Positions 17,807 to 55,666 of a stretch of DNA of 64,000 nucleotides are shown here, one piece after another (the first letter of the stretch is position 1; every line of letters begins with the position of its first letter). The DNA comes from a virus. Made by a program: the position numbers and the translations under genes. The stretch spans positions 1-64,000 of the IMG/VR virus record IMGVR_UViG_3300033146_003395; one strand, written 5' to 3'. The notes beneath the pieces were generated by a model, which had not been told where the DNA came from, ran no database searches, and saw nothing but the letters and a program-made list of their open reading frames with translations.

Positions 17807-17825
17807 TATTTAATAAAGGATAATA

Positions 17826-34708: not shown

Positions 34709-34908
34709 CATTAATTTTGAAAGATAAACCTATGACACTCAATGAGTTTAATAAAGTTGAGCGAAATGTAAGCCGTAAGCTTACAAATTGGCCTGAAGTA
34801 ATGTTTAATTCTTGGTATTATAAGGGCACAGTCCATTTTAAAATATCAGAAAAACATATAGAGATTTTAAGTTTAGAACTTTATATGGTAGGAGATTTAA
34901 ATGAGTAA
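34705..34908 (+). CDS. hypothetical protein
   Basis: ATGA-coupled to gp52. Confidence 0.55.
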   Translation: MTLILKDKPMTLNEFNKVERNVSRKLTNWPEVMFNSWYYKGTVHFKISEKHIEILSLELYMVGDLNE

Positions 34909-35323
34909 ACTTTATGCAAACCCATTTAAGTTGCAAAACCCATTTGAACCCAATAATCCATATCCAGGTTATAATCAAAGAGATAATGCAGTTGGTACTA
35001 AAAAAGTACAAGTTGAAATGAGATTTAGTGACGTTGTTATGAGTGAGTTGCCGGAAGAAATCAAAGATGAAAAAATTAGAAGACAACTGATTGATAACTT
35101 AGTTCAAGAACTTTATAAAAGTGAATTTATAGAATTTAAGAAACAGAAACGACCTCAAGATTTTGGATTAGAAACTGATTATGCAGTATCTGTAAATGTT
35201 GCTGATAAACAATTTACTAATACAATAGTATCTGAAAATTATTTTTTCTGGAAAGGCCGTGAATGGTCAGAAGCAGAAATTATTGAAGGACTTAAACAAG
35301 CCAACCCCCAATATATAGTTTAA
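34901..35323 (+). CDS. hypothetical protein, PQYIV tag
   Basis: GGAG RBS. Ends QANPQYIV. Confidence 0.65.
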   Translation: MSKLYANPFKLQNPFEPNNPYPGYNQRDNAVGTKKVQVEMRFSDVVMSELPEEIKDEKIRRQLIDNLVQELYKSEFIEFKKQKRPQDFGLETDYAVSVNVADKQFTNTIVSENYFFWKGREWSEAEIIEGLKQANPQYIV

Positions 35324-35402: not shown

Positions 35403-35600
35403 ATGACAAAAACTAAAATTGAAGAAAAAATCGTTAAATATACAACAATGTTGAAACATAATCAAGAAATTTTTGATGGTTATGCCCCTTTCGATGATAC
35501 CAAATGTAATGAAAGAACAGCAGCATTAACAACTGTTCGCTTATGTGAAAATCTTTTAGAAGAACTAGAAGAATTACATTTAGAGCATGATTATGTTTAA
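35403..35600 (+). CDS. hypothetical early protein
   Basis: ATG 35403 after AAGGA. Confidence 0.6.
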   Translation: MTKTKIEEKIVKYTTMLKHNQEIFDGYAPFDDTKCNERTAALTTVRLCENLLEELEELHLEHDYV

Positions 35601-36213
35601 GAGTATTTGGAATAGACTTAAAGGAGATTTTAGCGAAGAGCATGATAACACTTTACCAGAAATAAAATCTAGACCTCCAATGCCTAAAAATGTAAAAGCA
35701 CCTAAGATTAAAGTTAATATTATTCCGGTTTTTAACCCAACCCAAGCTAATATTGACAAATATTCTAAGGGTGCTAGTTATTCATATACAGATGAGCATA
35801 AAGAGCAAGTAGATGGATTTATTAATATTCTGTTTGAAAATTTTGATACATTAGTTATCGACCATTATAATATTAAATTTAAAGGTACCGCTAAAAAAAG
35901 TGCCGCTCATAAATTTCAGATTGAAACTTGGATTGCAAATGGTGCTTACGCTGTTAAATTCGATTACATTATGAAAAGTGGAAAGACATTTACAACTCGT
36001 GTTAATAGAGAACAAGCTGCTAAAGTAATGTTCTTAAAAGAAAAATTGTTAGATCATAAAGCTAAGAAACTTAAAGATGAACTTAATGCTGAACTTAATA
36101 TCGAGAGTAAATCATTCACAACTATGGTGACATCATCAGGTAAAGAAATTAAAATTACCCAAAAAGATATTATTGATAGTTTAAGAATTACATCACCGGA
36201 ATATTTTGTATAA
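35587..36213 (+). CDS. hypothetical protein, PEYFV tag
   Basis: Ends ITSPEYFV. Confidence 0.7.
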   Translation: MIMFKSIWNRLKGDFSEEHDNTLPEIKSRPPMPKNVKAPKIKVNIIPVFNPTQANIDKYSKGASYSYTDEHKEQVDGFINILFENFDTLVIDHYNIKFKGTAKKSAAHKFQIETWIANGAYAVKFDYIMKSGKTFTTRVNREQAAKVMFLKEKLLDHKAKKLKDELNAELNIESKSFTTMVTSSGKEIKITQKDIIDSLRITSPEYFV

Positions 36214-36443
36214 TGGAATTACTAGAAAACTTAAAGGATTTAAAAGGATTTTTAGGACCTAGATTTAAAGAGTTCATTGATGGAAAATATTATGTTCATC
36301 GTAATAATTTTTGTAATATAATTGGAGCGGAAGGTTGTGATGGTTGTGCTTTTGAACCTGTTTGTGATAGTATAGATGAGCTGGAAGAAAATAAGAAACT
36401 GGTAAATATTTTAAATCAAGAATATCCAGAATATATGGTATAG
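36213..36443 (+). CDS. Cys-containing small protein, PEYMV tag
   Basis: C..CDGC..C. Ends QEYPEYMV. Confidence 0.7.
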   Translation: MELLENLKDLKGFLGPRFKEFIDGKYYVHRNNFCNIIGAEGCDGCAFEPVCDSIDELEENKKLVNILNQEYPEYMV

Positions 36444-37656: not shown

Positions 37657-38022
37657 ATGGGTTATTTAGAAATTATTGGAATCGGATATGCAGTGAACAT
37701 ATTAGCTTATGTTTTTATTATATTAATATCGATATTAAATGTGATAGTTAATATGTTATATGGTAATGCTATAGACTTAATGGCTGAGTCTACTGTATTA
37801 AAAACATTACATGCAGAATATTACGAACTTAAGAAATTAGTCCCTAAGAATATTTCAGGAACACCAGAAGATAAAGCCTTATTCTTTCCGTTTATGTTAT
37901 TAGTGCCTACATTTAAATTATTTTTCTTTTCTATGAAATATGGAATGAATAATTATCTAGCTTTAAGGATAATAAAGAAAAATACTGAAATGAAAGAGTG
38001 GATAAAAGCAAATGAGAAATAA
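37657..38022 (+). CDS. membrane protein
   Basis: Hydrophobic segments. Confidence 0.6.
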   Translation: MGYLEIIGIGYAVNILAYVFIILISILNVIVNMLYGNAIDLMAESTVLKTLHAEYYELKKLVPKNISGTPEDKALFFPFMLLVPTFKLFFFSMKYGMNNYLALRIIKKNTEMKEWIKANEK

Positions 38023-38426
38023 TGGCTGATAGATTTGATAAATTAAGTAAACGTTATAAGATAGAAGAAGATGAAAAGTGGAGAGAACATTCACATGATA
38101 TGCCAGCTCTTAAACTAAAACCTGGATATGGAATTAGTGTAGTCCCAGCTTTTGGTGGAGCTATGTTAAGAATGAATATCGAAAAAGGTCCAATTAATTT
38201 CTCAATATATTATGATACTCAAGATGCCTTAGGTATTGTTGGCAAAGCTTATTGGGAAATATTTCCTTTTGTGAAATATGGAACTGAGCAAGATGGTACA
38301 ATTAGAGCAGAGGAGGACACAGGTAGGTATTATACAGATGAATTCAATGAAATGATTGAAGCGATGTATAAGAACACAGAGTATCAGGAAGAATTTCGCG
38401 AGAAATTCCCTGAGAATTTTATTTAA
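38022..38426 (+). CDS. hypothetical protein, PENFI tag
   Basis: Ends EKFPENFI. Confidence 0.7.
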   Translation: MADRFDKLSKRYKIEEDEKWREHSHDMPALKLKPGYGISVVPAFGGAMLRMNIEKGPINFSIYYDTQDALGIVGKAYWEIFPFVKYGTEQDGTIRAEEDTGRYYTDEFNEMIEAMYKNTEYQEEFREKFPENFI

Positions 38427-39554: not shown

Positions 39555-40934
39555 ATGATAAAAAAGATACTAGATGAATTTAATAAAACAAATTCGACGA
39601 ATGATAAAAAAATTGTATTAGAAAAACATAAAGATAACTTACAATTAATTGAAGTGTTTCAAAAAGCATTAGATAAAGTTAAATGGACTTATGGGATAAC
39701 TTTAAAAAATATTCCAGAGTATAAATGTTCTAACAAACAGGATTTGCAATGGGCTCTGACTTCTTTAGAACTATTAGCTGATAGAACATATAGTGGACAT
39801 GCTGCCCTTGATTATATACATAATATTTTAAGTTCTATATCTGAAGATAACGCCTACATTATCGAAAGAATTTTGGATAGAGATCTAAAAATTAGATTTG
39901 GTAAAACTGAATTTAATAAGATAGTCGATAAAGGATTACAATGTACTCGTCCTCCATACACTAGATGTGAAATTGGTACTAAAGCAAATATTCTTAAAAA
40001 TATGCCAGTTGATAAAGATGGTAACTTCAAAAATAAAGTATACAGTGAAGTTAAAATGGATGGTACATTCCGTAGAGCAGTTGTTGATGGTACAGATGTT
40101 GAAATTACTTCAAGACCAGGTATTGCTGGTTCATTTCCATTAATCGAAGCACAATTAAAAACTATACCTTTTGAGGGTTATGTTTATATTGGTGAAATGA
40201 CTTTAAGAGGCGAACAAGACCGTTCAAAAGGTAATGGTCTTATTAATTCTGATGATATTCCACATGACGATGTTTTATTTACTGTTTGGGATATGATACC
40301 TATTCAAGAATATGCTATGACTAAAGATGAAATTAAGAAAGCAGAAAAAGCTGGAACATTAAGTCATTATGAAGATAGATTTAATTTATTAGAACATGCT
40401 ATCAAAAATATCCCTGGTGGATTAGCAAATGTTGAACTTATTGAATACAGAATTGTTAAAAACATGACTGAAGCTTATGAGCATTTCCAAGAAGTTACTC
40501 TAAGAGGTGACGAAGGTACAGTTATTAAAGCTCACGATATGACTCACAAAGATGGTAACAGTAAAAAACAATTAAAAGTTAAACTTGTTATTGAATTAGA
40601 TATGAGAATTACCGGATTTAATGCTGGTAATAAAGGTTCTAAAAATGAAGCATATTTCTCAGGAATTAATTTTGAGAATGATGAAGGTACTATCAAAGGT
40701 TCAGTTGGTGTTACATCATTAACAGAAAAAGATAGAGACTACTTTCATGAAAATAGAGAATTTGTTATTGGACAAGTTATGTCAATGGTTTGTAACGATA
40801 TTACACAAGCATCTGGAAATGATTTTAAAGCGTTATCACATCCAAGATATGATAAACTTAGAGGTAAAGAAAAAGAAACTGATACTCTTGAAAGAGCATT
40901 AGAACAAAAACAAATGGCAATGGAGTTAAAATAA
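39555..40934 (+). CDS. ATP-dependent DNA ligase gp30
   Basis: EVKMDG (KxDG), SRPG, IGEM, VWDMI, EGTVIK, KVK, SHPRY..R. Confidence 0.92.
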   Translation: MIKKILDEFNKTNSTNDKKIVLEKHKDNLQLIEVFQKALDKVKWTYGITLKNIPEYKCSNKQDLQWALTSLELLADRTYSGHAALDYIHNILSSISEDNAYIIERILDRDLKIRFGKTEFNKIVDKGLQCTRPPYTRCEIGTKANILKNMPVDKDGNFKNKVYSEVKMDGTFRRAVVDGTDVEITSRPGIAGSFPLIEAQLKTIPFEGYVYIGEMTLRGEQDRSKGNGLINSDDIPHDDVLFTVWDMIPIQEYAMTKDEIKKAEKAGTLSHYEDRFNLLEHAIKNIPGGLANVELIEYRIVKNMTEAYEHFQEVTLRGDEGTVIKAHDMTHKDGNSKKQLKVKLVIELDMRITGFNAGNKGSKNEAYFSGINFENDEGTIKGSVGVTSLTEKDRDYFHENREFVIGQVMSMVCNDITQASGNDFKALSHPRYDKLRGKEKETDTLERALEQKQMAMELK

Positions 40935-41134
40935 TGGCTAAGTGGTTAAAATATAAAAACTTTAATCAATATAATGAAAGAATATCTGAAACAATGTTAC
41001 ATAAAGCAATGAATGATAAACTTTATAAAAATATTGTTAAAGAAAATATTTTAAGAAATGTTAGAGAAGACTACAATAAAGATAGTGAACTTACTGAATA
41101 TATGTTAGATCACTATGCTATGTATTTTATATAA
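40934..41134 (+). CDS. small protein, divergent tag (YAMYFI)
   Basis: TAATG-coupled to ligase. Confidence 0.6.
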   Translation: MAKWLKYKNFNQYNERISETMLHKAMNDKLYKNIVKENILRNVREDYNKDSELTEYMLDHYAMYFI

Positions 41135-41143
41135 GGATAAATA

Positions 41144-41395
41144 ATGGCTAAAGATTTTGACCATCTAGCGAAAGCTAGAGCCCGTGAAGAAAAAGAACAC
41201 AATTATTATACTAGATGGAGTTATGATGATGCCTGGGGTTATTTATCAGCACAAATAAAGGGTAAAACTAAGTGGGAAAGGCAAGCTTCAAAGTTAAAAC
41301 AAGAAATTGATAATACTACTTATCCTAAGAGACTTAAAAAGCTCCAGAAAAAACTCCAGATTATTGTTGATGAATATCCTGAATATTTTGTATAA
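41144..41395 (+). CDS. small protein, PEYFV tag
   Basis: Ends DEYPEYFV. Confidence 0.7.
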   Translation: MAKDFDHLAKARAREEKEHNYYTRWSYDDAWGYLSAQIKGKTKWERQASKLKQEIDNTTYPKRLKKLQKKLQIIVDEYPEYFV

Positions 41396-41405
41396 TTTAA
41401 TCCAA

Positions 41406-41456
41406 ATTTAACCTAGAACTAATATAAGTTATGGTATAATATAGTATATAAAGGAT
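41406..41456 (+). promoter_or_regulatory. early promoter repeat
   Basis: TTTAACCTAGAACTAATATAAGTTATGGTATAATATAGTATATAAAGGAT. Confidence 0.8.
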
Positions 41457-41460
41457 AATA

Positions 41461-41781
41461 ATGATGATACAATATTATGAAACTAAATTAGAGAATTTTG
41501 ATTACGAAATTTCTAATCCCAAAAAAATACAAAAACCTAAAAGTATTAGATGCAGATTTAAAGTTGGTGATACTATTATTAATATTAACAGATTGCAAGT
41601 CGAAAAGAAACCGCAAAATTGGGAAGTCATAAAAATTAATAAGAATTCTATGACTGTTGCAGGATTAGTTGAAAGTCGTTGGTACAAAACACAACGTCAA
41701 ACAGATATTAACCAAGATGGTTATAAATTTTATAAAACATTAGATGAATATAATGAAATGTTTCCAGAATATTTTGTATAG
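41461..41781 (+). CDS. small protein, PEYFV tag
   Basis: Ends EMFPEYFV. Confidence 0.7.
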   Translation: MMIQYYETKLENFDYEISNPKKIQKPKSIRCRFKVGDTIININRLQVEKKPQNWEVIKINKNSMTVAGLVESRWYKTQRQTDINQDGYKFYKTLDEYNEMFPEYFV

Positions 41782-41788
41782 GAAAAAG

Positions 41789-42046
41789 ATGAAAAAGAAA
41801 AGAAATCCAGAATTTTTAGTCTATCGTTTTGGTGATGCACCTGAAGGGTCTATTCAAATCGTTATGAAATATACTGGAATATCAAATAATGAAGATTTTG
41901 ATTATGTCGATACAGTTTATGGTAATTATGGTAATTATAGTAATTATGGTAGCACCTATAGTTTTTGTGAAGATTATGTTTTACAAAAAACTGGTTGCAA
42001 TACTATAGAAGCATTCCATGAAAAATATCCAGAGTATTCAATATGA
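41789..42046 (+). CDS. small protein, PEYSI tag
   Basis: Start moved to ATG 41789 after AGGA. Ends EKYPEYSI. Confidence 0.7.
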   Translation: MKKKRNPEFLVYRFGDAPEGSIQIVMKYTGISNNEDFDYVDTVYGNYGNYSNYGSTYSFCEDYVLQKTGCNTIEAFHEKYPEYSI

Positions 42047-42471
42047 TGGGTTCAAAAGGAGAAACTTTGTTAAAAGTAGAAACAACATCAACAGAAAAAA
42101 ACTTAGCTATATTATTCTTAGAACGTCCACCAGAGGGATATTCATTTAATTCCTTAGATGAAGCTTTTGCATATGCTGAGCAGTATATGAGAGAATCTAA
42201 AGAGACAAAAGAATATTATGTTTGTACAATGTTTCCGTATGATTTACGTGATATTGTAAAAGCGAGAGTTAAAACACCCGCTAAATATTTTACTAGTTAT
42301 AAACAAGCTAGAATTTTTCAACTACAGTTAGCTTTTAAAAATGATATTGAGCAAAAGAAACAAGATGATGAAGGTTATTTTACAGTAGATGGAAAATATA
42401 AATTATTATCTGAAGGTGATATGGGCGAGTATTATGAGTACCATAAAACTGAACCAGAGTATTTCGTATGA
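42043..42471 (+). CDS. protein with PEYFV tag
   Basis: Ends KTEPEYFV. Confidence 0.7.
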   Translation: MMGSKGETLLKVETTSTEKNLAILFLERPPEGYSFNSLDEAFAYAEQYMRESKETKEYYVCTMFPYDLRDIVKARVKTPAKYFTSYKQARIFQLQLAFKNDIEQKKQDDEGYFTVDGKYKLLSEGDMGEYYEYHKTEPEYFV

Positions 42472-42674
42472 AAAAATTATCAGATTTAATAATAGGTGAT
42501 TTAGTTGAATTTAAACTTGAAGCATTTAATCAAAGAGTTTATAAAGTAACAGATTTTAGAGATAACTGGAATATTATTAAATTACTAGATTTAACATACG
42601 GTGGAGAAACTTGGTGGCAAAAAGATAAGCTTAAAGAAATAACACCTGAAGAATGGCCGGAGTATTTCGTATGA
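42468..42674 (+). CDS. small SH3/KOW-like protein, PEYFV tag
   Basis: LIIGDLVEF. Ends EEWPEYFV. Confidence 0.7.
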   Translation: MKKLSDLIIGDLVEFKLEAFNQRVYKVTDFRDNWNIIKLLDLTYGGETWWQKDKLKEITPEEWPEYFV

Positions 42675-42901
42675 AAAAATTAGAAGATTTTCCAATAGGA
42701 ACTGAAATAGTTTATATACCAAATCTGATTAAACATAAAGCAATCCATAAGAGTTGGATTGTACAGAATATTTCAGTAAATAACAATTTAGTTTGTGGAG
42801 TAAAAGATTCAGAAGGTTGGACTGGTATTCAAGAAAAAGATTTAGATAATTATATGGTTATTGATGATGTAAAAATAAATTACCCGGAGTATTTCGTATG
42901 A
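42671..42901 (+). CDS. small protein, PEYFV tag
   Basis: Start moved to coupled ATG 42671. Ends INYPEYFV. Confidence 0.7.
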   Translation: MKKLEDFPIGTEIVYIPNLIKHKAIHKSWIVQNISVNNNLVCGVKDSEGWTGIQEKDLDNYMVIDDVKINYPEYFV

Positions 42902-43137
42902 TAGAACAAGAATTAGAGATGTCATTTGATGCTGATATGCACATGAAAGTATTAAATGATGCTAAAGATGCTTTACTCGAAAATGCTAATATTCATGATG
43001 TTAAAAGCTTAATTCAAATCCGCCAATATTGTAATAATCCTGGAGAATTCCAGATAGTAGACTGTTACGATAAAGTCGCAATTGACTTAGACTTATATAA
43101 TAAATTAAATAAAGATTTCCCGGAGTATTTCGTATGA
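42898..43137 (+). CDS. small protein, PEYFV tag
   Basis: Ends KDFPEYFV. Confidence 0.7.
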   Translation: MIEQELEMSFDADMHMKVLNDAKDALLENANIHDVKSLIQIRQYCNNPGEFQIVDCYDKVAIDLDLYNKLNKDFPEYFV

Positions 43138-43352
43138 AAAATAAAGAATTAAAAGATAATTATGAAGAGCTTACAGAAGAGCTAAGATATTATAAAAACA
43201 GAGTTAATGAGCATAGTCAAATCAGACCGTCTGAACCAGGTAAAAGACTTGACCAATGGAGATTAGGTTGGAATATATTTCATAATAATGTTGCTAGACT
43301 TGAAAAAATAGTGCAAACATTCAAAGATGAACACCCGGAGTTTTTTGTATGA
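43134..43352 (+). CDS. small coiled-coil protein, PEFFV tag
   Basis: Ends DEHPEFFV. Confidence 0.7.
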   Translation: MKNKELKDNYEELTEELRYYKNRVNEHSQIRPSEPGKRLDQWRLGWNIFHNNVARLEKIVQTFKDEHPEFFV

Positions 43353-43603
43353 GACCAGAAATAAATAGTTTCAGTGTCGATGAAAAACAGTTTTGGTATG
43401 TTACAACTAACCTAGATGATAAAAACGTTAATATGTCTAACCTAGATTATCTTTGTAATGATTTTGTGATAAGAGGTTGGAAAGATACTGTTACTAATTA
43501 TGGAGCTGATGAAGCTAACAATATGATTATTCACGAAGATTTATCAGCAATTAATAATTTTTTAGAACAATTTAGAGAAGATTGTCCTGAGTATTTTGTA
43601 TAA
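43349..43603 (+). CDS. small protein, PEYFV tag
   Basis: Ends EDCPEYFV. Confidence 0.7.
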   Translation: MRPEINSFSVDEKQFWYVTTNLDDKNVNMSNLDYLCNDFVIRGWKDTVTNYGADEANNMIIHEDLSAINNFLEQFREDCPEYFV

Positions 43604-43611
43604 GAGATATT

Positions 43612-43905
43612 ATGGGAAATGAAATTTTAGAAATGACATTTGGAGATATAATAAATGACCCCGTAAAAGTGCCTGAGTATGATTATAAGATTTACTTATA
43701 CTATAACGAAACATTAGCGAAACTTAAATCATTAGATTCAATAACAATATTAGTTAGACTTGAAAATGAAGAATCTGCTAATCACTCTGGTGTAGCACTT
43801 GGCATTATTTTAGATACCGAAAAAAGAAAAGCAATAAACCCAAAGTACCTAAAATTTCTTTGTTTAAATTCTGAACGTGATGAGTTCCCGGAGTATTTCG
43901 TATGA
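43612..43905 (+). CDS. small protein, PEYFV tag
   Basis: Ends DEFPEYFV. Confidence 0.7.
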   Translation: MGNEILEMTFGDIINDPVKVPEYDYKIYLYYNETLAKLKSLDSITILVRLENEESANHSGVALGIILDTEKRKAINPKYLKFLCLNSERDEFPEYFV

Positions 43906-44228
43906 TTAAAAATGAACATGGATTTGGTAACACACATCTGAAACTTAATAATAAAAGAGATAAAGTAAAACTGCACCCTCATGAATATTTCAAAAAGAAC
44001 TATGATTTCGATGGAGTAACTTATAATTTCTTTCCAGAGCCTTTTACAAATGCTTTAGAAGGTGTTACTCCAGCAATGACTGGTGAAATATATGAAGTAG
44101 TTGAAGAAGGCTCAAACGGTACTATAATAATAATTAAAACTGAACTTGGAAATATTACAAAACCTGTAGGCAAATGGGCTATTGAAGAATTATATACTTT
44201 AGAAGATAATCCTGAATATTATGTCTAA
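43902..44228 (+). CDS. small protein, PEYYV tag
   Basis: Ends EDNPEYYV. Confidence 0.7.
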   Translation: MIKNEHGFGNTHLKLNNKRDKVKLHPHEYFKKNYDFDGVTYNFFPEPFTNALEGVTPAMTGEIYEVVEEGSNGTIIIIKTELGNITKPVGKWAIEELYTLEDNPEYYV

Positions 44229-44238
44229 TTCTTTTGGA

Positions 44239-44295
44239 ATTTAAGCTCCGTTTAATGTTAAACATGGTATAATATAGTATATAAGAAAAGAAGGA
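44239..44295 (+). promoter_or_regulatory. early promoter repeat
   Basis: TTTAAGCTCCGTTTAATGTTAAACATGGTATAATATAGTATATAAG. Confidence 0.8.
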
Positions 44296-44301
44296 TATTA
44301 A

Positions 44302-44562
44302 ATGACAATTAAAGAAATAACTAAAATTGAGATAACAGAATTAAATATAGCAATCATTGATAATTGTAATAGTAGTGAAGATACTGCTAAAACTATTGAA
44401 GCAGTTGCAGAAGTAATTATTAAAAATTCTAAACTTATGTTAGAAAGAGAAACTCAATTACAAATGAGAATTGAAGCACTTGAAGAAAAACTTCGTAAAA
44501 ATCGAGAAGAAGAAGTTTATACACAAGCTGAAATTGATTCATATAATGGGATGGGTAAATAG
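44302..44562 (+). CDS. hypothetical coiled-coil early protein
   Basis: AAGGA RBS. Confidence 0.65.
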   Translation: MTIKEITKIEITELNIAIIDNCNSSEDTAKTIEAVAEVIIKNSKLMLERETQLQMRIEALEEKLRKNREEEVYTQAEIDSYNGMGK

Positions 44563-44988
44563 ATGGAAAGATTATTTGCGGATAACACACCTACTTTGTT
44601 AGGATTTGAAATTACTTTAGAAATAGCAAGAGAATATGATTGGTCAATGGAGCGTACGATGGCCGAACTAAGACTTACTTTGTATAACAGTTTAGATTTA
44701 GCTTCTGAAGATAAAACAATGGCTTTAGATGAACTTCAAGAGATTAAAGATACTGAAGAAAATGAATCAGTATTAGCAACTATTCACGAATTAAGCAAAA
44801 AAGAAGCTAAAATTTCTTTAGAAATGTCAGATACTTGGTATGAAATTGATACATTAAAAAGAGAATATCCGGAAATATATCAAGCACTTGAAGATGATAT
44901 TCCAGAAGGAATTAGAGGTAATGATTTTTATAAAGAAATGCACGTTCGCTTAAAAAGAGAGTTCAGAGAAATTTGGAAGGAACTATAA
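44563..44988 (+). CDS. hypothetical acidic protein
   Basis: Operonic. Internal KREYPEIY. Confidence 0.65.
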   Translation: MERLFADNTPTLLGFEITLEIAREYDWSMERTMAELRLTLYNSLDLASEDKTMALDELQEIKDTEENESVLATIHELSKKEAKISLEMSDTWYEIDTLKREYPEIYQALEDDIPEGIRGNDFYKEMHVRLKREFREIWKEL

Positions 44989-45335
44989 TGTTAGAATTTA
45001 ATGCTGAACAAAATAAATTTGTAGCAACTCAACTAATGAATAAATACCCAGAGATTTATGAAGAATTAACTGAAGATTTTGATAGACTTCCTGCTGGAGA
45101 TTTGCAAGCGATATTAGCTGTTATTAAAGAAATTAAATTGGGGAAGAAAATCCAGGCTATTAAAGAAGTTATAAGTATCTTAGGGCTAGGCTTAAAAGAA
45201 GCTAAAGACTATGTGGAAGCACTAGAAGGTCCAATGCAAGAAACTTCAGATGGTACAAGAATTCGTACAATTAAACCTGAGATATTAACTCGATTAGCAT
45301 ATTATCAGGAGAAATACCCAGAGTATTTCGTATAG
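44988..45335 (+). CDS. protein with ribosomal bL12 (L7/L12) C-terminal-like domain, PEYFV tag
   Basis: KKIQAIKEVISILGLGLKEAKDYVE. Ends EKYPEYFV. Confidence 0.7.
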   Translation: MLEFNAEQNKFVATQLMNKYPEIYEELTEDFDRLPAGDLQAILAVIKEIKLGKKIQAIKEVISILGLGLKEAKDYVEALEGPMQETSDGTRIRTIKPEILTRLAYYQEKYPEYFV

Positions 45336-45343
45336 GAGATAAT

Positions 45344-45676
45344 ATGAAAAATAAATTAAGTGATTTAGAAGTAGATGATGTATTTCTTGTAAATTACAAA
45401 TATGAAGACCAAGATTTTGATATTATTTGTGCAGTTATGGAAACAGATAATATAGAAGTTGATGGAATGCCAGGTATTAAAATTTCAGATTTGAAAACAT
45501 TCAATGGTGAAGATTTAGATTATGAATATAATATTTCTTTAGAAGGATATGATAGTGGTTTTATGGGAGATAAGAAGCCAGAAATTACAAATCAATTTAC
45601 ATTCAAAGAGTTCTTATTCAGTCACCAAAGTGTTTTAGGGAGATTAGAAGAAGAAAGACCAGAATATTTTGTTTAA
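45344..45676 (+). CDS. acidic protein, PEYFV tag
   Basis: Ends EERPEYFV. Confidence 0.7.
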   Translation: MKNKLSDLEVDDVFLVNYKYEDQDFDIICAVMETDNIEVDGMPGIKISDLKTFNGEDLDYEYNISLEGYDSGFMGDKKPEITNQFTFKEFLFSHQSVLGRLEEERPEYFV

Positions 45677-45684
45677 GGAGAATA

Positions 45685-45879: not shown

Positions 45880-45887
45880 GAGATTTA

Positions 45888-46184
45888 ATGTCACTTTGTA
45901 TGATAGAGCCTGAATAGTTCGGAGAGAAATTTGAAGACGTAGGAAATACAGAAATTATTTCAATGAATTATGATAAGAGTTTTTTCAAAAATTGGAATGG
46001 GCATTATTTAGTTGGTATCGATTATTTGGATAATACTGATTGTACTTATTATGTATTTTCACCTAAGAGAGCAATCTCAAATTCACGATTAACTATTAAA
46101 GTTAAGCATGATACAAAATATGAATTTACACCTGAAATCGCCGAGAGAATAATCCCAGAATTATTCCCAGAGCATTTAATTTAA
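45888..46184 (+). pseudogene. PEHLI-tagged protein interrupted by in-frame TAG at 45915
   Basis: GGAG plus ATG 45888 is in frame with track ORF 45963. Reads MSLCMIEPE*FGEKF... Confidence 0.5.
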
Positions 46185-46199
46185 TCTTAAGGAGATGAA

Positions 46200-46966: not shown

Positions 46967-46999
46967 AGTTATTATAGTATAATAGTACAAGGAGTTAAT

Positions 47000-47161
47000 A
47001 TGCACTGTATAGATAAAATCGCCGATAAAATTAATGATTTAAAAATAGAGCTTGATATTAACCGGAGCGACCTCGGCGGAGATGAAGATAAGTTATATAC
47101 TAAATCTATTCTCTTAGAATTAAAAAAATTAAAAGAGGAATACCCAGAGTATTTCGTATAA
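47000..47161 (+). CDS. 53-aa protein, PEYFV tag (not in track)
   Basis: GGAG RBS. MHCIDKIADK...KEEYPEYFV. Confidence 0.7.
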   Translation: MHCIDKIADKINDLKIELDINRSDLGGDEDKLYTKSILLELKKLKEEYPEYFV

Positions 47162-49619: not shown

Positions 49620-49955
49620 ATGGAAGCTAAAATATTACATTTTAACGATACAATCCGTAGAGATATAAACGGAGCTGGAAGTAGATTAGAACTTAAATCA
49701 TTAGCCTTTGAGGGTTATTTAAACTTAGGTTATAATACAGTTGCTAGAGTCCTGGTATCTGGTAATACTGATGAGATCTTAAGAAATTCATTTAAACTTA
49801 CAAATTCATTCGATACTTTCTGGGGAGATAATGCAGATGTAACTTGTTATAATCCTAAATGTCGTTCAACTTCAGTTGGTGATTTAATCCAGGTAGGAAA
49901 TGAAATTCATATTGTTGCATCAGCAGGATTTGAATATCTTTGTGAGGTAAAATAA
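49620..49955 (+). CDS. hypothetical early protein (RSTSVGD motif)
   Basis: RSTSVGDLI..V...GF resembles YodL-like phage proteins. Confidence 0.55.
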   Translation: MEAKILHFNDTIRRDINGAGSRLELKSLAFEGYLNLGYNTVARVLVSGNTDEILRNSFKLTNSFDTFWGDNADVTCYNPKCRSTSVGDLIQVGNEIHIVASAGFEYLCEVK

Positions 49956-50662
49956 TGCAAGAATTAGACACTTATAATAAATACGTTAAAGAGTACGCTC
50001 ATTTATTTGATAGAGATTTTGAAGGTGGTTTAAGTAACCCTGAGATTATTGAGCTTGCTAATGCTGTTAAACAAGTAAATTATATGATTAATAATAAGGC
50101 AAAAAATCTTAGAAATATTTACGATTACCAAAAGAAATGTTTAACATTTCCAGAGTATGATGAAAGACATAGCAAAACATTTAAGGGATATGGTAGAATA
50201 TATTTTGATAGATTTGTTGAAAATATTAATTCAGTAAATTTCTTTGAATTGCTTACATCAAAACGTAAGAAAAATTCTAATATCATTTTTAAAACAGATA
50301 ATCATAGAGATGAATTTAATGCTAAAACATTTAGTGATATGTTTAATCAATTCAAATTAATTTGTGATGAGTATGATGATTATTTTAATAACCAAGAATT
50401 TTATATTAAGAGATTCTTAGATACTGGTGATTCTACTAAAGATAAAGTAGTATCTTATGATAGACAATCACTTTATATTGGATATTTTGACGAGAGTGCA
50501 GCAGATATTTCTGGACTAGTTTATAATATTAACCATGATAAGGATAGTGTTTTCGATTTTCATACAGTAGAATTTTCAGTTCCTTTAGAAAAAATAGATA
50601 ACAAATATTATCAAGGTCTAAATGATTACATGAAAAACTTTTTTCCAGAGTATATAGTATGA
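49955..50662 (+). CDS. hypothetical protein, PEYIV tag
   Basis: Ends NFFPEYIV. Confidence 0.7.
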   Translation: MQELDTYNKYVKEYAHLFDRDFEGGLSNPEIIELANAVKQVNYMINNKAKNLRNIYDYQKKCLTFPEYDERHSKTFKGYGRIYFDRFVENINSVNFFELLTSKRKKNSNIIFKTDNHRDEFNAKTFSDMFNQFKLICDEYDDYFNNQEFYIKRFLDTGDSTKDKVVSYDRQSLYIGYFDESAADISGLVYNINHDKDSVFDFHTVEFSVPLEKIDNKYYQGLNDYMKNFFPEYIV

Positions 50663-50922
50663 TTAAAAACCCAACAGAACAACAATTGCAAGCTTTAGAT
50701 TTTAATGTTATTGTATATATTACAGTCCGTAAAGAAAAGATTAAGTGTTTCTCTGGAAATTCATTACCAGATAATCTAAGAGGTACAACTTTTAAAGCAT
50801 CTCGCACTGGCTCACATACAATACAACCTAATAAACCATTAGGTGGATATTGGCATGACATTGTAGCTGAGCAGATAGAAGAGATTTATACTAAGGATGA
50901 AGATACTGAGTATTTTGTATGA
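50659..50922 (+). CDS. small protein, TEYFV tag
   Basis: Ends DEDTEYFV. Confidence 0.7.
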   Translation: MIKNPTEQQLQALDFNVIVYITVRKEKIKCFSGNSLPDNLRGTTFKASRTGSHTIQPNKPLGGYWHDIVAEQIEEIYTKDEDTEYFV

Positions 50923-51275
50923 TTAAAGAATGGGACCAATATCACCAGTATTTTTATACCCCTACAGATATTAATAATATCAAACCTGGTGATGTAATTT
51001 ACAGAATCAAAATAAAAATGATGGACTATATTGAAGAGACTTATAGAGTCCTAGAAATTGATGAAAATGGTTTACATTCAAGAGCTATAATCTGTAATAT
51101 GTTTGATGGTCCAGTGGAGAAAGTGGCCTTAGGCATACTTCCAAGGTTTTATATAACGTACGAACAGATAGTTGAACATAATGTAAATCTAGCAAGGGAT
51201 GGGTTTCCGTGGGATAGACCATACAATTTAATAGTAAAAGGGGACCAGTTAGAATTCCCTGAATATTATATATAA
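50919..51275 (+). CDS. small protein, PEYYI tag
   Basis: Ends QLEFPEYYI. Confidence 0.7.
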   Translation: MIKEWDQYHQYFYTPTDINNIKPGDVIYRIKIKMMDYIEETYRVLEIDENGLHSRAIICNMFDGPVEKVALGILPRFYITYEQIVEHNVNLARDGFPWDRPYNLIVKGDQLEFPEYYI

Positions 51276-51283
51276 GGATTAAA

Positions 51284-51532
51284 ATGAAAACAGTAGATGT
51301 ATTACTAGAAGACCAAGATTTTATGGATAAGTATTGTACAGCATCAATTAGTGCACATTTTTGGAAATCAGACCATAGAATAGTAATAAACAAACACCTA
51401 GTGGGAAAAGGTTTATTAAACTGTAGAATGATAAGTGTAAGACTTTTAGAAACACTAGATGGATATCAATTTGATTGGAAATTCGTTAAGCAAGAAATTA
51501 ACCAGTTAGAATTCCCTGAATATTACGTATAA
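51284..51532 (+). CDS. small protein, PEYYV tag
   Basis: Ends QLEFPEYYV. Confidence 0.7.
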   Translation: MKTVDVLLEDQDFMDKYCTASISAHFWKSDHRIVINKHLVGKGLLNCRMISVRLLETLDGYQFDWKFVKQEINQLEFPEYYV

Positions 51533-51994: not shown

Positions 51995-52306
51995 ATGGAA
52001 ATAAGAATACAATATAGAACAAGTACGCATGAGGGTGATGACTTTTTTGATAGCACAGCCGAAGCGATTGAGTATCTAATGGGATTAGAGGCAGAAATAG
52101 AAGAAGAAATTGCAGCAGATGAAGAAGAATATATGACAGAATCTGAAGAAGAAGAATTTGCGTGCTTACCAGATAGAGTAAGTGTTTCTAAAGTACAAAG
52201 AAGTTATAACAAAACTACTATAGAAGTTGAACTAGCAGAATATAAAGAAAACGGTTTTGAAATTACGTATGAAGGTAAAACGGGTTATACACTGGAGAGA
52301 AAATGA
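51995..52306 (+). CDS. acidic hypothetical protein
   Basis: AAGGA RBS. Confidence 0.6.
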   Translation: MEIRIQYRTSTHEGDDFFDSTAEAIEYLMGLEAEIEEEIAADEEEYMTESEEEEFACLPDRVSVSKVQRSYNKTTIEVELAEYKENGFEITYEGKTGYTLERK

Positions 52307-52674
52307 TTGTTAAAATCAGTACATACAAAAACCGAAAAGGCTTAGCGGAGCTTTTAATACCTGAACTTCCGTTTTATGTGCTGGATAAAGAGGAAGATGA
52401 GCCTAGTCATTATTTTAAAGCCGTTTCAATGTCTAAGAAATATTACTGGGATACACCTTATAAATTAGATAAGAATGGCCAGAATTTTCATAGCGGAAAC
52501 TCTAAAAAACTTGCAGTCATGGCTGGACAAGAAATTTACAAGACTGTAGAAGAAGTCCAGAATGCTTTAATTAAAAGAAAAGTAGAAACAGTAAAAGAAT
52601 TGTTTCCAGAAATTTTATATCTTTATAATGATTATACAAAATTCATGGAAGAATACCCAGAGCATTTTCTATAA
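52303..52674 (+). CDS. protein with PEHFL tag
   Basis: Ends EEYPEHFL. Confidence 0.65.
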   Translation: MIVKISTYKNRKGLAELLIPELPFYVLDKEEDEPSHYFKAVSMSKKYYWDTPYKLDKNGQNFHSGNSKKLAVMAGQEIYKTVEEVQNALIKRKVETVKELFPEILYLYNDYTKFMEEYPEHFL

Positions 52675-54775: not shown

Positions 54776-55666
54776 ATGCCTAAGAAGAAAACGCAAGAAG
54801 ATTATTTATTAGAATTAATTAATAAGTCAATATATATAATTCCATTAGAGACATATATTAACTTTAATACAAAGATTTTACATAAATGTATATGCGGAAA
54901 TGAATGGGAAGTTATGCCTAAGTTAATATTAAGAGGTGTTTTATGTGGGTGTAAAGGTACGGCTAAACCAAATACTAATAATTGGTATTTAAATAAGCTT
55001 ATAAAAAACAAAATAACTGTTATTCCATTAGAGGCGTATATTAACTCTAATACAAAGATTTTACATAAATGTATATGTGGAAATAAGTGGTTTATTACCC
55101 CAAACGATATAATAAAAGGGGTAAAGTGTGGGTGTATTAATGGTTTATCCCAAATTAAATCAAACAAATGGTATCTAGAAAAATTAGAAGAAAAAGATAT
55201 AAAAGTAATACCATTAGAACCTTATATTAAATCAAGGACTAAAATTTTACATAAGTGTTACTGTAATAATGAATGGTTAGGTAGACCAATGGATGTGCTA
55301 AAAGGAATGGGCTGTGGATGTAAACGTAACTATTCTTTAAGAGGTGTAGAATTTTATAGAGGTAAGAAAACAATCTTATATTATATAAAAATTAAAGGAT
55401 TGAATAACGAAGATTTATATAAAATCGGTGTTACTTTATATAAAGAATCAATAGAAAAAAGTTTAAAGAAAAGATTCTATAGACAAGAATATGAGATTAT
55501 ACAGACTGATATTTTCAAAGATGGTAGCGAAGCGTTCACATTAGAACAACAGATATTAGAATTTAACAGAGAATACAGATATTTAGGCGAGAAAGTTCTT
55601 AAATCTGGAAATACTGAATTATTTATTAAGGATATAACGTATGAAAAAAGTACCCAAAAAAACTGA
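54776..55666 (+). CDS. endonuclease with zinc repeats and GIY-YIG-like C-terminus; paralog of 36792
   Basis: Start moved to ATG 54776 after AAGGA and TATAAATA 54752-54759. Confidence 0.75.
   Translation: MPKKKTQEDYLLELINKSIYIIPLETYINFNTKILHKCICGNEWEVMPKLILRGVLCGCKGTAKPNTNNWYLNKLIKNKITVIPLEAYINSNTKILHKCICGNKWFITPNDIIKGVKCGCINGLSQIKSNKWYLEKLEEKDIKVIPLEPYIKSRTKILHKCYCNNEWLGRPMDVLKGMGCGCKRNYSLRGVEFYRGKKTILYYIKIKGLNNEDLYKIGVTLYKESIEKSLKKRFYRQEYEIIQTDIFKDGSEAFTLEQQILEFNREYRYLGEKVLKSGNTELFIKDITYEKSTQKN

What the first reader, a model, noticed from the sequence alone, without database searches (positions are those of the whole stretch)
41144..45676. A common C-terminal peptide tag (PEYFV-COOH) on more than 40 unrelated phage proteins
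Seen: across the window (6877, 8061, 13133, 17131-18107, 30334-30749, 34901-36443, 38022, 41144-47161, 49955-52674, 54532-57365, 63320) I count over 40 ORFs of about 50-240 aa. They end in a short charged helix plus [YFHNCW]-P-E-[YFHMRW]-[FLYI]-[VI]-stop; eleven run consecutively at 41144-44228. Their bodies are unrelated (coiled coils, SH3-like, membrane, bL12-like, DUF932-like). Almost all lie in early-promoter arrays, and recognisable core, structural and sugar genes lack the tag. Synonymous codons vary (CCA/CCT/CCG/CCC, GAA/GAG; stops TAA/TAG/TGA) and substitutions are conservative, so selection acts on the peptide. Inference: a phage-wide address label read by one partner, such as a degron for a host or phage protease that times early effectors, a docking motif for a phage scaffold or clamp, or a packaging/export signal. 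I know of no described equivalent at this scale.
Basis: partly seen in the sequence, partly recalled or inferred. Interest (0 to 1): 0.9.

Follow-up and report, generated by a model that had tools for sequence, protein, structure and literature searches.

The report
Shared C-terminal PEYFV tag, phage proteins
About a quarter of the genes on this uncultured T4-like phage contig encode small, otherwise unrelated proteins that end in the same peptide (aromatic-Pro-Glu-Tyr-Phe-Val, then stop); selection keeps the peptide itself, and in other phages such tails occur together with one phage ATPase and protease gene pair, which is the best but still unproven candidate reader.

Summary
In this contig (81.7 kb, about 44% complete) 40 ORFs end in P-E-x-x-x-stop, and 45-47 if close variants are counted. 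All lie on the + strand. The strict motif is terminal 39 times and internal 4 times, against 0.01-0.03 terminal cases expected.

With the tag removed, only 1 of 1081 protein pairs is related.

The tag DNA is dual-coded. In 18 coupled genes it reads CCG-GAG...GTA-TGA, which supplies a Shine-Dalgarno site and the overlapping ATG of the next gene. The 22 uncoupled genes keep the peptide with ordinary codons, so selection acts on the peptide.

The same kind of tag, with lineage-specific consensus, covers 7-25% of genes in relatives. These include cultured Vibrio phage Va1 and an unrelated SU10-portal phage. That phage shares only three proteins with the T4-like carriers: a MoxR AAA+ ATPase, a zinc-peptidase-vWA protein and ribonucleotide reductase. 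T4, KVP40, CP220 and HTVC008M have neither tag nor pair.

This contig lacks the pair. Synteny with its closest relative puts MoxR about 5-6 kb beyond the left end.

Binding was not tested, because the complex predictor was unavailable.

This scan has found the same phenomenon on other DNA before. I found no published description.

The parts
6877..7602 (+). Tagged gene, 241 aa, ends MPELFI. Its G004 ortholog (47% identical) ends FPEVFI.
8061..8465 (+). Tagged gene, 134 aa, ends NPERYI.
13133..13642 (+). Tagged gene, 169 aa, ends CPERLI.
17131..18107 (+). Four tagged genes ending YPEYAV, FPEYFV, CPEFFV and YPEWLI. The last is followed by the minus-strand capsid gene, so its tag serves no downstream gene.
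29924..30749 (+). Three tagged genes ending RPETTI (weak variant), HPERFV and FPEYLV, just before the topoisomerase II gene.
34901..35323 (+). Variant tag NPQYIV (Gln instead of Glu), 140 aa.
35593..36443 (+). Two tagged genes ending SPEYFV (206 aa) and YPEYMV (76 aa).
38022..38426 (+). Tagged gene, 134 aa, ends FPENFI.
40934..44228 (+). Twelve consecutive small genes. The first has a degenerate end (YAMYFI). The next eleven end in [YFEWHCN]-PE-[YF]-[FYS]-[VI], and most are joined by the junction CCGGAGTAT-TT[CT]-GTATGA.
44988..45676 (+). Two tagged genes: a 115-aa protein with a ribosomal bL12 C-terminal-domain-like region (ends YPEYFV) and a 110-aa protein (ends RPEYFV).
45963..46184 (+). 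Tagged gene, 73 aa, ends FPEHLI.
47000..47161 (+). Smallest tagged gene, 53 aa, ends YPEYFV. Uncoupled: TAA stop, then the next gene's own ribosome-binding site.
49955..51532 (+). Four tagged genes ending FPEYIV (235 aa), DTEYFV (variant), FPEYYI and FPEYYV.
52303..52674 (+). Tagged gene, 123 aa, ends YPEHFL.
55641..57365 (+). Eight consecutive tagged genes ending YPEMFV, EPEYFV, HPEYFV, NAEYLI, FAEYFV, MPEYFV and NPEYFI among others. 56206-56421 and 56418-56630 are the only related pair (58% identical).
63320..64000 (+). Tagged gene 63320-63793 (ends YPEMFI) and the start of 63807-64028 (ends HPEYFI), which runs past the window. A further tagged gene lies at contig 64025-64339.
41432..41448 (+). 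One of 13 copies of the conserved promoter core TGGTATAATATAGTATA, all on the + strand. The other copies start at 6536, 6813, 10295, 12545, 16641, 29891, 35371, 39524, 44265, 49582, 54292 and 62577. This copy heads the eleven-gene array.
1907..2599 (+). Sliding clamp (gp45-type processivity factor), untagged. A candidate reader that I considered and ranked low.

Best explanation
PEYFV-COOH is this phage's version of a C-terminal short linear motif: an acidic amphipathic helix, an aromatic residue, Pro, Glu or Gln, then three hydrophobic residues and the free carboxyl end. It marks fast-evolving, mostly orphan accessory proteins that lie in operons on the replication-gene strand, headed by a conserved promoter, with no late promoter motif directly upstream.

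Shown: the peptide itself is under selection, the carriers are unrelated, and each phage genome has its own consensus.

Shown by comparison: the tag travels with a phage MoxR AAA+ ATPase and a protein that joins a zincin-type metallopeptidase (invariant HExxH...H) to a vWA domain with an intact MIDAS metal site.

Inferred: The vWA/peptidase protein would capture the free C-terminal tail, and MoxR would supply ATP-driven remodelling. The tagged proteins would then be handled as one class, either trimmed, turned over or delivered. Which outcome applies is unknown.

Secondary, shown: the tag DNA also works as a portable junction. CCG-GAG provides a Shine-Dalgarno site, and GTA-TGA provides the overlapping start of the next gene. 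This probably helps small genes to be strung together and exchanged.
For: Peptide-level selection:
- The 18 ATGA-coupled tags use CCG 11/18 and GAG 17/18, against genome-wide 5% and 21%.
- The 22 uncoupled tags use CCA/CCT 20/22 and GAA 11/22, with TAA or TAG stops, and still encode the motif.
- There are 8 different codings of PEYFV.
- The tag is kept where no downstream gene exists.

Carriers: 1 related pair in 1081. Pfam and PHROGs give no family at accepted thresholds except one bL12-like domain and three PHROG families of unknown function.

Fast turnover with the tag retained: only 6 of 45 tagged proteins have a homolog in the closest relative G004 (capsid protein 80% identical). Bodies are 20-47% identical and the tag or a close variant is kept.

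Lineage-specific consensus:
- this contig: PEYFV
- G004: PE[YL]F[VI] plus PQYFI
- G005: PQYFI and PYHFI
- G007: PELFI
- Va1: PE[LE][FL]I
- L096: PEYFL
- L097: PEI[IF]F

Link to MoxR and the peptidase-vWA protein:
- G007 is a complete 103.5-kb phage with an SU10-type portal and family A polymerase, and no gp23. 41-46 of its 166 genes are tagged. It shares only three proteins with G004, G005 and Va1: peptidase-vWA, MoxR and ribonucleotide reductase.
- A tag-first DNA scan found new tag-rich contigs. The two largest (56 and 97 kb) carry both genes.
- T4, KVP40, CP220 and HTVC008M have 0 tags and neither gene.
- Loci with only distant MoxR homologs have no tags.
- Tagged genes directly flank the pair in L096, L097, L103, G004 and G005.
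- In G004 and G005 the pair sits behind promoter-like sequences with a TATAAT-type -10 box; G005's resemble the conserved promoter of this contig's + strand operons. None of the eight MoxR or peptidase-vWA upstream regions examined has a late TATAAATA motif.
- None of 120 MoxR and none of 120 peptidase-vWA homologs carries the tag.

Reader anatomy:
- Invariant H84, H88 and H93, with E85 in at least 90% of sequences; invariant MIDAS residues D391, S393, S395, T449 and D473.
- Pfam DUF2201_N plus DUF2201.
- The AlphaFold2 model has pLDDT 80, and its C-terminal domain matches integrin I domains and the MDN1 MIDAS/UBL complex.

Synteny: contig positions 1-7600 match G004 155.8 to 151.0 kb in reverse, and G004 MoxR lies at 162.2-163.3 kb. 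The pair is therefore expected just beyond this contig's left end.
Against: - Neither gene is on this contig. Its presence in this phage rests on synteny with a relative.
- No binding evidence of any kind exists. The complex predictor was not available.
- Position -4 is Gln or Tyr instead of Glu in G005 and partly in G004. A simple model in which the tag's Glu binds the MIDAS metal therefore cannot be general. If MIDAS is involved, the terminal carboxylate is the more likely ligand.
- Several loci with close MoxR homologs show few or no tags within 10 kb (L089-L093, L099).
- Co-occurrence could reflect joint transfer of an accessory region rather than a reader-client relation.
- G007 and G008 were first reached through MoxR, although the tag-first scan found them again.
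- The three-protein intersection used BLASTP at E<1e-4 with 40% coverage, so it can miss small or divergent shared proteins.
Confidence: 0.5

Rival explanations
1. The tag is read by a host factor. One version is a protease or adaptor that recognises hydrophobic C-termini (ClpXP, ClpAP, Lon, FtsH, or PDZ proteases such as Prc or DegS), which would make it a degron that times early proteins. Another version is a different host hub.
For: - The requirement for a free, hydrophobic C-terminus (39 terminal against 4 internal matches) is typical of C-terminal degrons and PDZ ligands. Tyr-Phe-Val fits the hydrophobic-x-hydrophobic-COOH pattern; this comparison comes from my own knowledge.
- The consensus differs between phages that probably have different hosts.
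- Va1 encodes ClpP and an S49 (SohB-like) peptidase, the latter inside a tag array.
Against: - T4-like phages of very different hosts (Vibrio phage Va1 and low-GC marine contigs) and an SU10-type phage share the P-[EQ] core. Vibrio phage KVP40, which infects the same genus as Va1, has no tag.
- Tag presence follows a phage gene pair, not the host.
- ClpP and S49 are not among the proteins shared with G007.
- The host of this contig is unknown, so nothing could be tested directly.
Confidence: 0.15
2. The tag has no dedicated reader. It is a self-contained structural cap or self-association element (helix plus hydrophobic tail) that stabilises or oligomerises small proteins, or drives them to a membrane or a shared condensate.
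For: - The conserved part is longer than a minimal docking peptide. It is about 13 residues with a helical periodicity of hydrophobic positions at -13, -10 and -6, followed by a Pro break.
- The carriers are very small (median about 85 aa) and might need a stabilising element.
Against: - It does not explain why the consensus shifts in concert within each genome.
- It does not explain why the tag occurs only with the MoxR/peptidase-vWA pair.
- A strict requirement for the exact C-terminus is unusual for a folding element.
Confidence: 0.12
3. The motif is a by-product of DNA-level functions: a translational-coupling cassette (Shine-Dalgarno site plus overlapping ATG), a promoter element, or a recombination junction for shuffling small genes. 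On this view the peptide has no function of its own.
For: - In the 18 coupled genes the tag DNA reads CCG-GAG-N8-ATG-A, with strong enrichment of the rare CCG and GAG codons.
- Identical 18-mers recur 4+4 times in neighbouring genes.
- Tag end plus stop creates TATAAATA late-promoter motifs before 51550, 52694 and 57397.
- GTA is over-used even in uncoupled tags: 10 of 13 Val codons, against 37% genome-wide.
Against: - A Shine-Dalgarno site in that frame requires only x-x-G GAG (any residue, then Glu), and the ATGA overlap requires only Leu, Ile or Val. Pro at -5, Tyr at -3, Phe at -2 and the aromatic at -6 are not explained.
- The 22 uncoupled genes keep the peptide with ordinary codons, including genes with no downstream gene.
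- Pro third positions use all four bases.
- Orthologs keep the tag while their bodies diverge to 20-47% identity.
Confidence: 0.06
4. The tag docks the proteins on the phage sliding clamp (gp45 type), as the C-terminal tails of T4 polymerase, gp55 and gp33 do.
For: - The contig encodes the clamp (1907-2599, PHROG 223, E 5e-25).
- Hydrophobic aromatic C-terminal tails are the known clamp ligands in T4-type phages (my own knowledge).
Against: - The DNA polymerases of the relatives G004 and G005 end in DEPW and IDEW, unlike the tag.
- Clamp-bearing T4, KVP40, CP220 and HTVC008M have no such tags.
- The SU10-type phage G007 has the tag but shares no clamp with the T4-like carriers at BLASTP level.
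Confidence: 0.03

Closest known systems
MoxR AAA+ ATPase with an N-terminal-metallopeptidase-vWA partner in 'group 2.2' (T4-like) jumbo phages (Iyer et al. 2021, Viruses 13:63, PMC7824862)
   Same: The same gene pair occurs in the relatives of this contig: AAA_5/AAA_3 plus DUF2201_N/DUF2201. It is the only specific gene set shared by all tag-bearing phages examined.
   Different: The paper proposes a role in virion assembly with peptidolytic processing of structural proteins, and mentions no C-terminal tag. Here the tagged proteins are non-structural and lie in operons on the replication-gene strand. None of the eight upstream regions of the pair that I examined (G004, G005, G007, G008, Va1) has a late TATAAATA motif. 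The pair itself is not on this contig.
MIDAS/vWA capture of an acidic ligand coupled to a MoxR-class AAA+ motor: Rea1/Midasin with the UBL domains of Rsa4/Ytm1, CbbQ-CbbO, NorQ-NorD, RavA-ViaA, CobS-CobT
   Same: The architecture is the same: a MoxR-class AAA+ ATPase plus a vWA domain with an intact MIDAS site. The MoxR profile hits Midasin and CobS. The vWA model matches integrin I domains and the MDN1-MIDAS/NLE1-UBL complex. Ligand carboxylates binding the MIDAS metal is the established mode for this fold.
   Different: Known systems act on one or a few defined clients, not on a quarter of a proteome marked by a linear tag. None has a fused zincin peptidase. The tag's Glu is replaceable by Gln or Tyr in G005. 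Binding is untested.
C-terminal degrons and tail-specific proteolysis: ssrA and MuA-type ClpX signals, FtsH (AAA+ plus HExxH protease), Prc/Tsp
   Same: A short signal that depends on a free C-terminus marks unrelated proteins for one ATP-dependent machine. An AAA+ ATPase with an HExxH peptidase resembles a split FtsH in logic.
   Different: The sequence differs: no Ala-Ala end, and an invariant Pro at -5. The candidate machine is phage-encoded, of the MoxR class, and has a vWA domain. Degradation of tagged proteins has not been shown.
Hub-docking C-terminal tails: T4 gp45-binding tails of gp43, gp55 and gp33; the bacterial SSB C-terminal tail (..DDDIPF)
   Same: Unrelated proteins, or one protein with many partners, are connected through a short C-terminal peptide that ends in hydrophobic residues.
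   Different: Those tails are carried by a handful of proteins. The polymerase tails in the relatives here are unlike the tag, and clamp-bearing phages without the MoxR pair have no tag.
Class II PDZ ligands and OMP C-terminal signals (hydrophobic-x-hydrophobic-COOH)
   Same: Tyr-Phe-Val-COOH fits the pattern, and recognition of the free carboxylate would explain the strict terminal position.
   Different: No PDZ protein was linked to the tag, and none is among the proteins shared by the tag-bearing phages at BLASTP level. A dedicated PDZ search was not run.

Membership tests
P-[EQ]-hydrophobic C-terminal tag class of phages carrying MoxR and peptidase-vWA (a class defined within this scan; unpublished as far as I could find) | The terminal pentapeptide has Pro at -5, Glu or Gln at -4 and hydrophobic residues at -2 and -1, directly followed by a stop, usually after an aromatic at -6 and an acidic helix. 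| tested here: met
   40 ORFs end in PE-x-x-x-stop; logo; 39 terminal against 4 internal matches.
P-[EQ]-hydrophobic C-terminal tag class of phages carrying MoxR and peptidase-vWA (a class defined within this scan; unpublished as far as I could find) | The tag is carried by many mutually unrelated small proteins of one genome, and not by core or structural proteins. | tested here: met
   1 related pair in 1081. 0 of 50 minus-strand genes carry it, and the helicases, clamp, gp32, RNase H, primase, topoisomerase II and ligase are untagged.
P-[EQ]-hydrophobic C-terminal tag class of phages carrying MoxR and peptidase-vWA (a class defined within this scan; unpublished as far as I could find) | The same genome encodes the MoxR AAA+ ATPase and the DUF2201_N/DUF2201 peptidase-vWA protein. 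| tested here: inconclusive
   Neither gene is on the contig, which is 44% complete. Both are in the closest relative G004, and synteny places MoxR about 5-6 kb beyond the contig's left end.
ClpX-type C-terminal degrons (ssrA-like or MuA-like) | The C-terminal sequence is of the ..LAA or basic ..RRKKAI type. | tested here: not met
   The consensus is [YF]-P-E-Y-F-V. The degron classes are taken from my own knowledge.
ClpX-type C-terminal degrons (ssrA-like or MuA-like) | Tag-dependent degradation by the host ClpXP. | not testable with these tools
T4-type sliding-clamp-binding C-terminal tails | The same tail is present on the phage DNA polymerase and on other known clamp clients. | tested here: not met
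   The polymerases of G004 and G005 end in DEPW and IDEW. This contig has no polymerase gene.
T4-type sliding-clamp-binding C-terminal tails | The tail binds in the clamp's hydrophobic pocket. | not tested
   The complex predictor was unavailable.
MoxR-vWA chaperone/co-chaperone systems (for the candidate reader found in relatives) | A MoxR-class AAA+ domain and a vWA domain with a complete MIDAS motif (DxSxS..T..D). | tested here: met
   AAA_5 hit at E 1e-10 to 1e-12. Invariant D391, S393, S395, T449 and D473. The fold matches integrin I domains. This was tested on relatives, not on this contig.
   BLASTP at E<0.01 on 47 tag-trimmed proteins finds one pair only. Domain hits differ where there are any: bL12 C-terminal domain in one protein, a weak ProQ-C-like hit in another.

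The most novel reading that the evidence does not exclude
The tag is the address label of a horizontally mobile, phage-encoded protein-handling system. A MoxR AAA+ ATPase and a zinc-peptidase-vWA protein would recognise the free C-terminal P-[EQ]-hydrophobic tail carried by up to a quarter of a phage's proteins, mostly orphan accessory proteins that are probably expressed early, and would process, deliver or destroy them as one class. Tag and reader would co-evolve, which gives each phage lineage its own consensus. The tag DNA doubles as a plug-and-play translational junction that lets new genes join the system.
Probability: 0.4. Interest if true: 0.9.

Novelty: new variant of a known kind. 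Interest (0 to 1): 0.8.

Why it matters
If one machine reads this tail, then a large share of the 'dark matter' small genes of several phage lineages belongs to a single functional system. These are the orphan accessory proteins that are otherwise impossible to annotate. Such a system could be switched off at one point.

The tag would provide:
- a sequence rule for recognising such proteins in metagenomes;
- a first client class for the uncharacterised phage MoxR/peptidase-vWA pair;
- possibly a portable tag for controlling protein fate in bacteria.

It is directly testable, because a cultured phage carries 72-88 tagged genes and both candidate reader genes: Vibrio phage Va1, whose host is Vibrio alginolyticus ATCC 17749.

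The dual coding of peptide, Shine-Dalgarno site and overlapping start codon is also a clear example of how gene arrays can be built from interchangeable cassettes.

Tried and rejected
Binding therefore remains untested, and this says nothing for or against it.
- Near-identical DNA in the phage collection: no match.
- Literature search for PEYFV: only papers on microcin J25, where the string is internal. I treat this as coincidence.
- Literature search for other tag strings: drowned in unrelated words.
- The phiTY18 genome paper mentions no motif, and no paper on Va1 is in the library.
- The search for related loci with the single Va1 MoxR protein found nothing. The alignment A1 was needed.
- The generic sigma-70 promoter scan is uninformative in this AT-rich DNA: 107 sites found against 119 expected. 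The promoter motif of G004 and G005 (CTTTAAGG..TATAAT) is not used in this contig. Reading the intergenic regions gave the real 13-copy promoter.
- A conserved third component between MoxR and the peptidase-vWA gene: the small tagged genes at that position are not homologous to each other.
- A self-tagged reader that could have shown the binding site in cis: none among 240 homologs.
- Fold searches with the peptidase domain alone gave only weak zincin matches: selecase at Foldseek E 5e-3, VIA Z at most 6.3. They identify a minimal zincin fold and nothing more specific.
- No solved close homolog of the peptidase-vWA protein exists.
- PQYFI tags in G004: 8 of them belong to one LRR-like paralog family, so they count as one event. 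The remaining PQ-tagged proteins of G004 and G005 are mostly unrelated to one another.
- 'PEDMV' on a transketolase-like fragment of G004 is a chance match.
- I considered looking for covariation between the tag's last residue and reader residues. I dropped it because there are too few independent lineages.

Full report
**What the DNA is.** The window is the first 64 kb of a single 81,735-bp viral contig with about 29% G+C. CheckV rates it 44% complete. It is a distant T4-like phage.
- It has a gp23 capsid protein, gp20 portal, gp21 protease, split topoisomerase II, ligase, gp32, RNase H and helicases, and a gp45-type clamp.
- The best capsid matches among cultured phages are 45% to Vibrio phages of the Va1/phiKT1024 group and 42% to Campylobacter phage CP220.
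- Among uncultured contigs the closest relative is G004 (IMGVR_UViG_3300026518_000006, 235.6 kb, capsid protein 80% identical). Next is G005 (IMGVR_UViG_3300033146_005641, 183 kb, 68%).

- Forty stop-to-stop ORFs of the contig end in P-E-x-x-x-stop, all on the + strand. Seventeen end in exactly PEYFV.
- With near variants (TEYFV, AEYFV, AEYLI, PQYIV, AMYFI) the count is 45-47 of about 105 + strand genes, and none of 50 minus-strand genes.
- The strict pattern is terminal 39 times and internal 4 times. The expected terminal count is 0.01-0.03.
- Conservation extends to about 13 residues: hydrophobic positions at -13 and -10, a basic residue at -9, acidic residues at -8 and -7, an aromatic at -6, then P-E-Y-F-[VI]. 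This reads as an amphipathic helix broken by Pro, followed by a short hydrophobic tail.

**The carriers are not one family.**
- After removing the last six residues, BLASTP finds one related pair among 1081 (56206-56421 and 56418-56630).
- Pfam and PHROGs give almost nothing for twenty of them. The exception is 44988-45335, which has a ribosomal bL12 C-terminal-domain-like region (PF00542, E 1.9e-8, above the curated cut-off).
- They evolve fast. Only 6 of 45 have a detectable homolog in G004, whose core proteins are 45-80% identical. In those six the bodies are 20-47% identical while the tag or a close variant is kept.

**Peptide or DNA signal?** Both, but the peptide is selected in its own right.
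- In 18 genes the stop overlaps the next start (GTA-TGA or ATA-TGA). There the Pro and Glu codons are CCG (11/18) and GAG (17/18), although the genome uses CCG for 5% of Pro and GAG for 21% of Glu. CCGGAG places GGAG eight bases before the ATG. In these genes the tag DNA is also the ribosome-binding site and start of the next gene. Identical 18-mers recur in neighbouring genes.
- In the 22 uncoupled genes, which have TAA or TAG stops and often a separate GGAG further on, Pro is CCA or CCT in 20 of 22 and Glu is GAA in 11 of 22. The same peptide is still encoded.
- Two of these genes are the last of a + strand block, with only minus-strand genes downstream (ends at 18107 and 64339).
- A Shine-Dalgarno site in this frame would demand only x-Glu. 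The ATGA overlap would demand only Leu, Ile or Val. Pro at -5, Tyr at -3, Phe at -2 and the aromatic at -6 have no DNA-level explanation.
- In three cases the tag end plus the stop also forms TATAAATA, the late-promoter motif, ahead of the next gene.

**Expression class.**
- Thirteen copies of a conserved promoter core (TGGTATAATATAGTATA, an extended -10) lie in the window, all on the + strand. Chance expectation is 0.06.
- They head the + strand operons, including tagged arrays as well as the ligase and a helicase.
- TATAAATA lies within 80 nt upstream of 13 genes, none of them tagged. They include the portal gene, other minus-strand genes and homing-endonuclease-like genes.
- The tagged genes therefore belong to the transcription units of the replication-gene strand. 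'Early or middle' is an inference from T4 biology, not a measurement.

**The tag is not unique to this contig.**
- A DNA pattern scan found tag arrays in three other viral contigs, for example 14 tags in 15 kb of L037.
- Cultured Vibrio phage Va1 (MK387337.2) ends 72-88 of about 341 genes in [HY]-PE-[LE]-[FL]-I.
- G004 has about 35 PE tags plus PQYFI tags. G005 has PQYFI and PYHFI tags and no PE tag at all.
- G007, a complete 103.5-kb genome with terminal repeats, ends 41-46 of 166 genes in PELFI. G008 uses PE[YL][FL]I. Other loci end in Leu or Phe.
- Each genome thus has its own consensus. That is what one expects if tags adapt to a reader that differs between phages.
- Glu at -4 is not universal.

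**The candidate reader.** Earlier notes of this scan pointed to a MoxR ATPase and a peptidase-vWA protein. I tested that here.
- Va1 has a MoxR-class AAA+ gene (AAA_5) and a peptidase-vWA gene.
- Loci around close homologs of that MoxR in IMG/VR often carry tags, and the peptidase-vWA gene sits beside MoxR with tagged genes around it. Loci around distant MoxR homologs carry none.
- G007 and G008 are not T4-like: they have an SU10-type portal, G007 has a family A polymerase, and neither has gp23. All-against-all BLASTP shows that G007 shares only three proteins with G004, G005 and Va1: the peptidase-vWA protein, MoxR and the ribonucleotide reductase large subunit.
- A scan that started from the tag (YPELFI-stop as DNA) re-found G004, G007 and G008 and found new tag-rich contigs. 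The two largest, at 56 and 97 kb, both carry the pair. Three fragments of 14-25% completeness do not.
- T4, KVP40, CP220 and HTVC008M have no tag among 202-404 genes each, and they have neither gene.
- None of 120 MoxR and 120 peptidase-vWA homologs ends in the tag.
- In G004 and G005 the pair sits behind promoter-like sequences with a TATAAT-type -10 box; G005's resemble the conserved promoter of this contig's + strand operons. None of the eight upstream regions I examined has TATAAATA.

**Anatomy of the candidate reader.**
- The peptidase-vWA family keeps H84, H88 and H93 invariant and E85 in at least 90% of sequences, together with a complete MIDAS motif.
- Pfam assigns DUF2201_N and DUF2201.
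- The AlphaFold2 model has pLDDT 80, and its C-terminal domain matches integrin I domains and the Midasin MIDAS/UBL complex.
- The N-terminal domain gives only weak minimal-zincin matches.

**This contig and the pair.** Neither gene is on the contig. Its first 7.6 kb is collinear, in reverse, with G004 155.8-151.0 kb: helicase, clamp, gp32, RNase H and a tagged 241-aa protein. In G004, MoxR lies at 162.2-163.3 kb and the peptidase-vWA gene at 176.6-178.2 kb. If the synteny holds, the pair lies just beyond the left end of the contig. This is an inference.

**Most likely mechanism.** The tag is a docking signal that depends on a free C-terminus. The best candidate reader is the phage MoxR/peptidase-vWA module. 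I suggest the vWA or peptidase part captures the tail, MoxR supplies ATP-driven remodelling, and the conserved peptidase site makes cleavage or turnover plausible. Because Gln or Tyr can replace Glu at -4, the terminal carboxylate is a better candidate for a MIDAS ligand than the Glu side chain. All steps after 'co-occurs with' are inferred. No binding test was possible. I put this reading at about 0.5.

**Rivals.**
- A host reader such as a protease or PDZ protein: 0.15.
- A reader-less structural or self-association element: 0.12.
- A pure DNA-level cassette: 0.06.
- The clamp: 0.03.

**Comparison with what is known.** Iyer et al. 2021 (PMC7824862) described the MoxR/metallopeptidase-vWA pair in T4-like jumbo phages. 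They proposed virion assembly and mention no tag. Shared C-terminal signals read by one machine are known in principle: degrons, clamp tails, SSB tails and PDZ ligands. I found no description of a tag on a fifth to a quarter of a phage's proteins, or of any client class for this pair. I therefore class this as a new variant of a known kind. This scan has reported the same phenomenon on other genomes, so this contig is one more carrier, with its own Val-ending consensus.

Noticed in passing
window 44988-45335 (+): A tagged 115-aa protein contains a region matching the C-terminal domain of ribosomal protein bL12 (PF00542, E 1.9e-8, 34.9 bits against a cut-off of 25.9). bL12 is the part of the ribosome that recruits translational GTPases. 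A phage copy with a docking tag is unusual.
   Followed up: partly
window 11692-12480 (+): A PD-(D/E)XK nuclease (PF12705, E 3e-21) ends in ..EDDIPF, which resembles the C-terminal tail of bacterial SSB. Its G004 ortholog ends differently (..GGTIEF).
   Followed up: partly
window 6536, 6813, 10295, 12545, 16641, 29891, 35371, 39524, 41432, 44265, 49582, 54292, 62577 (+): There are thirteen copies of a highly conserved promoter of about 50 nt: ..TTTAAGC..TTAATGTTAAACA-TGGTATAAT-ATAGTATATAAAG..AGGA. All are on the + strand and each heads an operon.
   Followed up: yes
window 51526-51540, 52668-52682, 57359-57373 (+): The tag's last codon plus TAA plus the following bases spell TATAAATA, the T4-type late-promoter motif, ahead of the next small gene. 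Some tag ends are therefore triple-coded.
   Followed up: partly
window 5405-6460 (+) and G004 151907-152923 (-): RNase H ends in ..DLIGKLGMF here and ..DLIGLLPLF in G004, a conserved hydrophobic tail unlike the PE tag. The DNA polymerases of G004 and G005 end in DEPW and IDEW. These may be the real clamp- or gp32-binding tails of this lineage.
   Followed up: no
window 8468-9148 (-), 25397-26050 (+), 32676-33377 (+), 36792-37655 (+), 46496-46966 (+), 54731-55666 (+): Several homing-endonuclease-like genes are present. Two have GIY-YIG-like N-termini and one a NUMOD3 motif. The ORFs at 36792-37655 and 46496-46966 share ..NTELFIK.. ends. 32676-33377 sits between the two topoisomerase II subunit genes, and several follow TATAAATA motifs.
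   Followed up: no
window 21264-22958 (-): The ORF that carries the gp21-type prohead protease domain (residues 25-160) is 564 aa long, against about 330 aa in G004. It has a long extra C-terminal part of unknown nature.
   Followed up: no
contig 64445-80719 (-), beyond the window: This is a cluster of many ORFs with CxxxCxxC radical-SAM-type N-termini. It also holds a 426-aa protein ending in Cys/Asn repeats (..CNCNYSCTCNCNYL). It is conserved in part in G004 (196-205 kb).
   Followed up: no
G004 12836-13573, 20255-21001, 37008-37865, 100661-101446, 111144-111770, 189284-189904, 217687-218244: The closest relative carries a dispersed paralog family, 58-79% identical to one another, with internal repeats and a weak LRR_4 match. 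All members end in EHFPQYFI, and relatives exist in G005. This is a tagged family that has multiplied.
   Followed up: partly
Va1 (L083) 4495-5436 and 33226-33810: Vibrio phage Va1 encodes an S49 (SohB-like) peptidase in the middle of a tag array, and a ClpP. Neither is shared with the SU10-type tag-bearing phage G007.
   Followed up: partly
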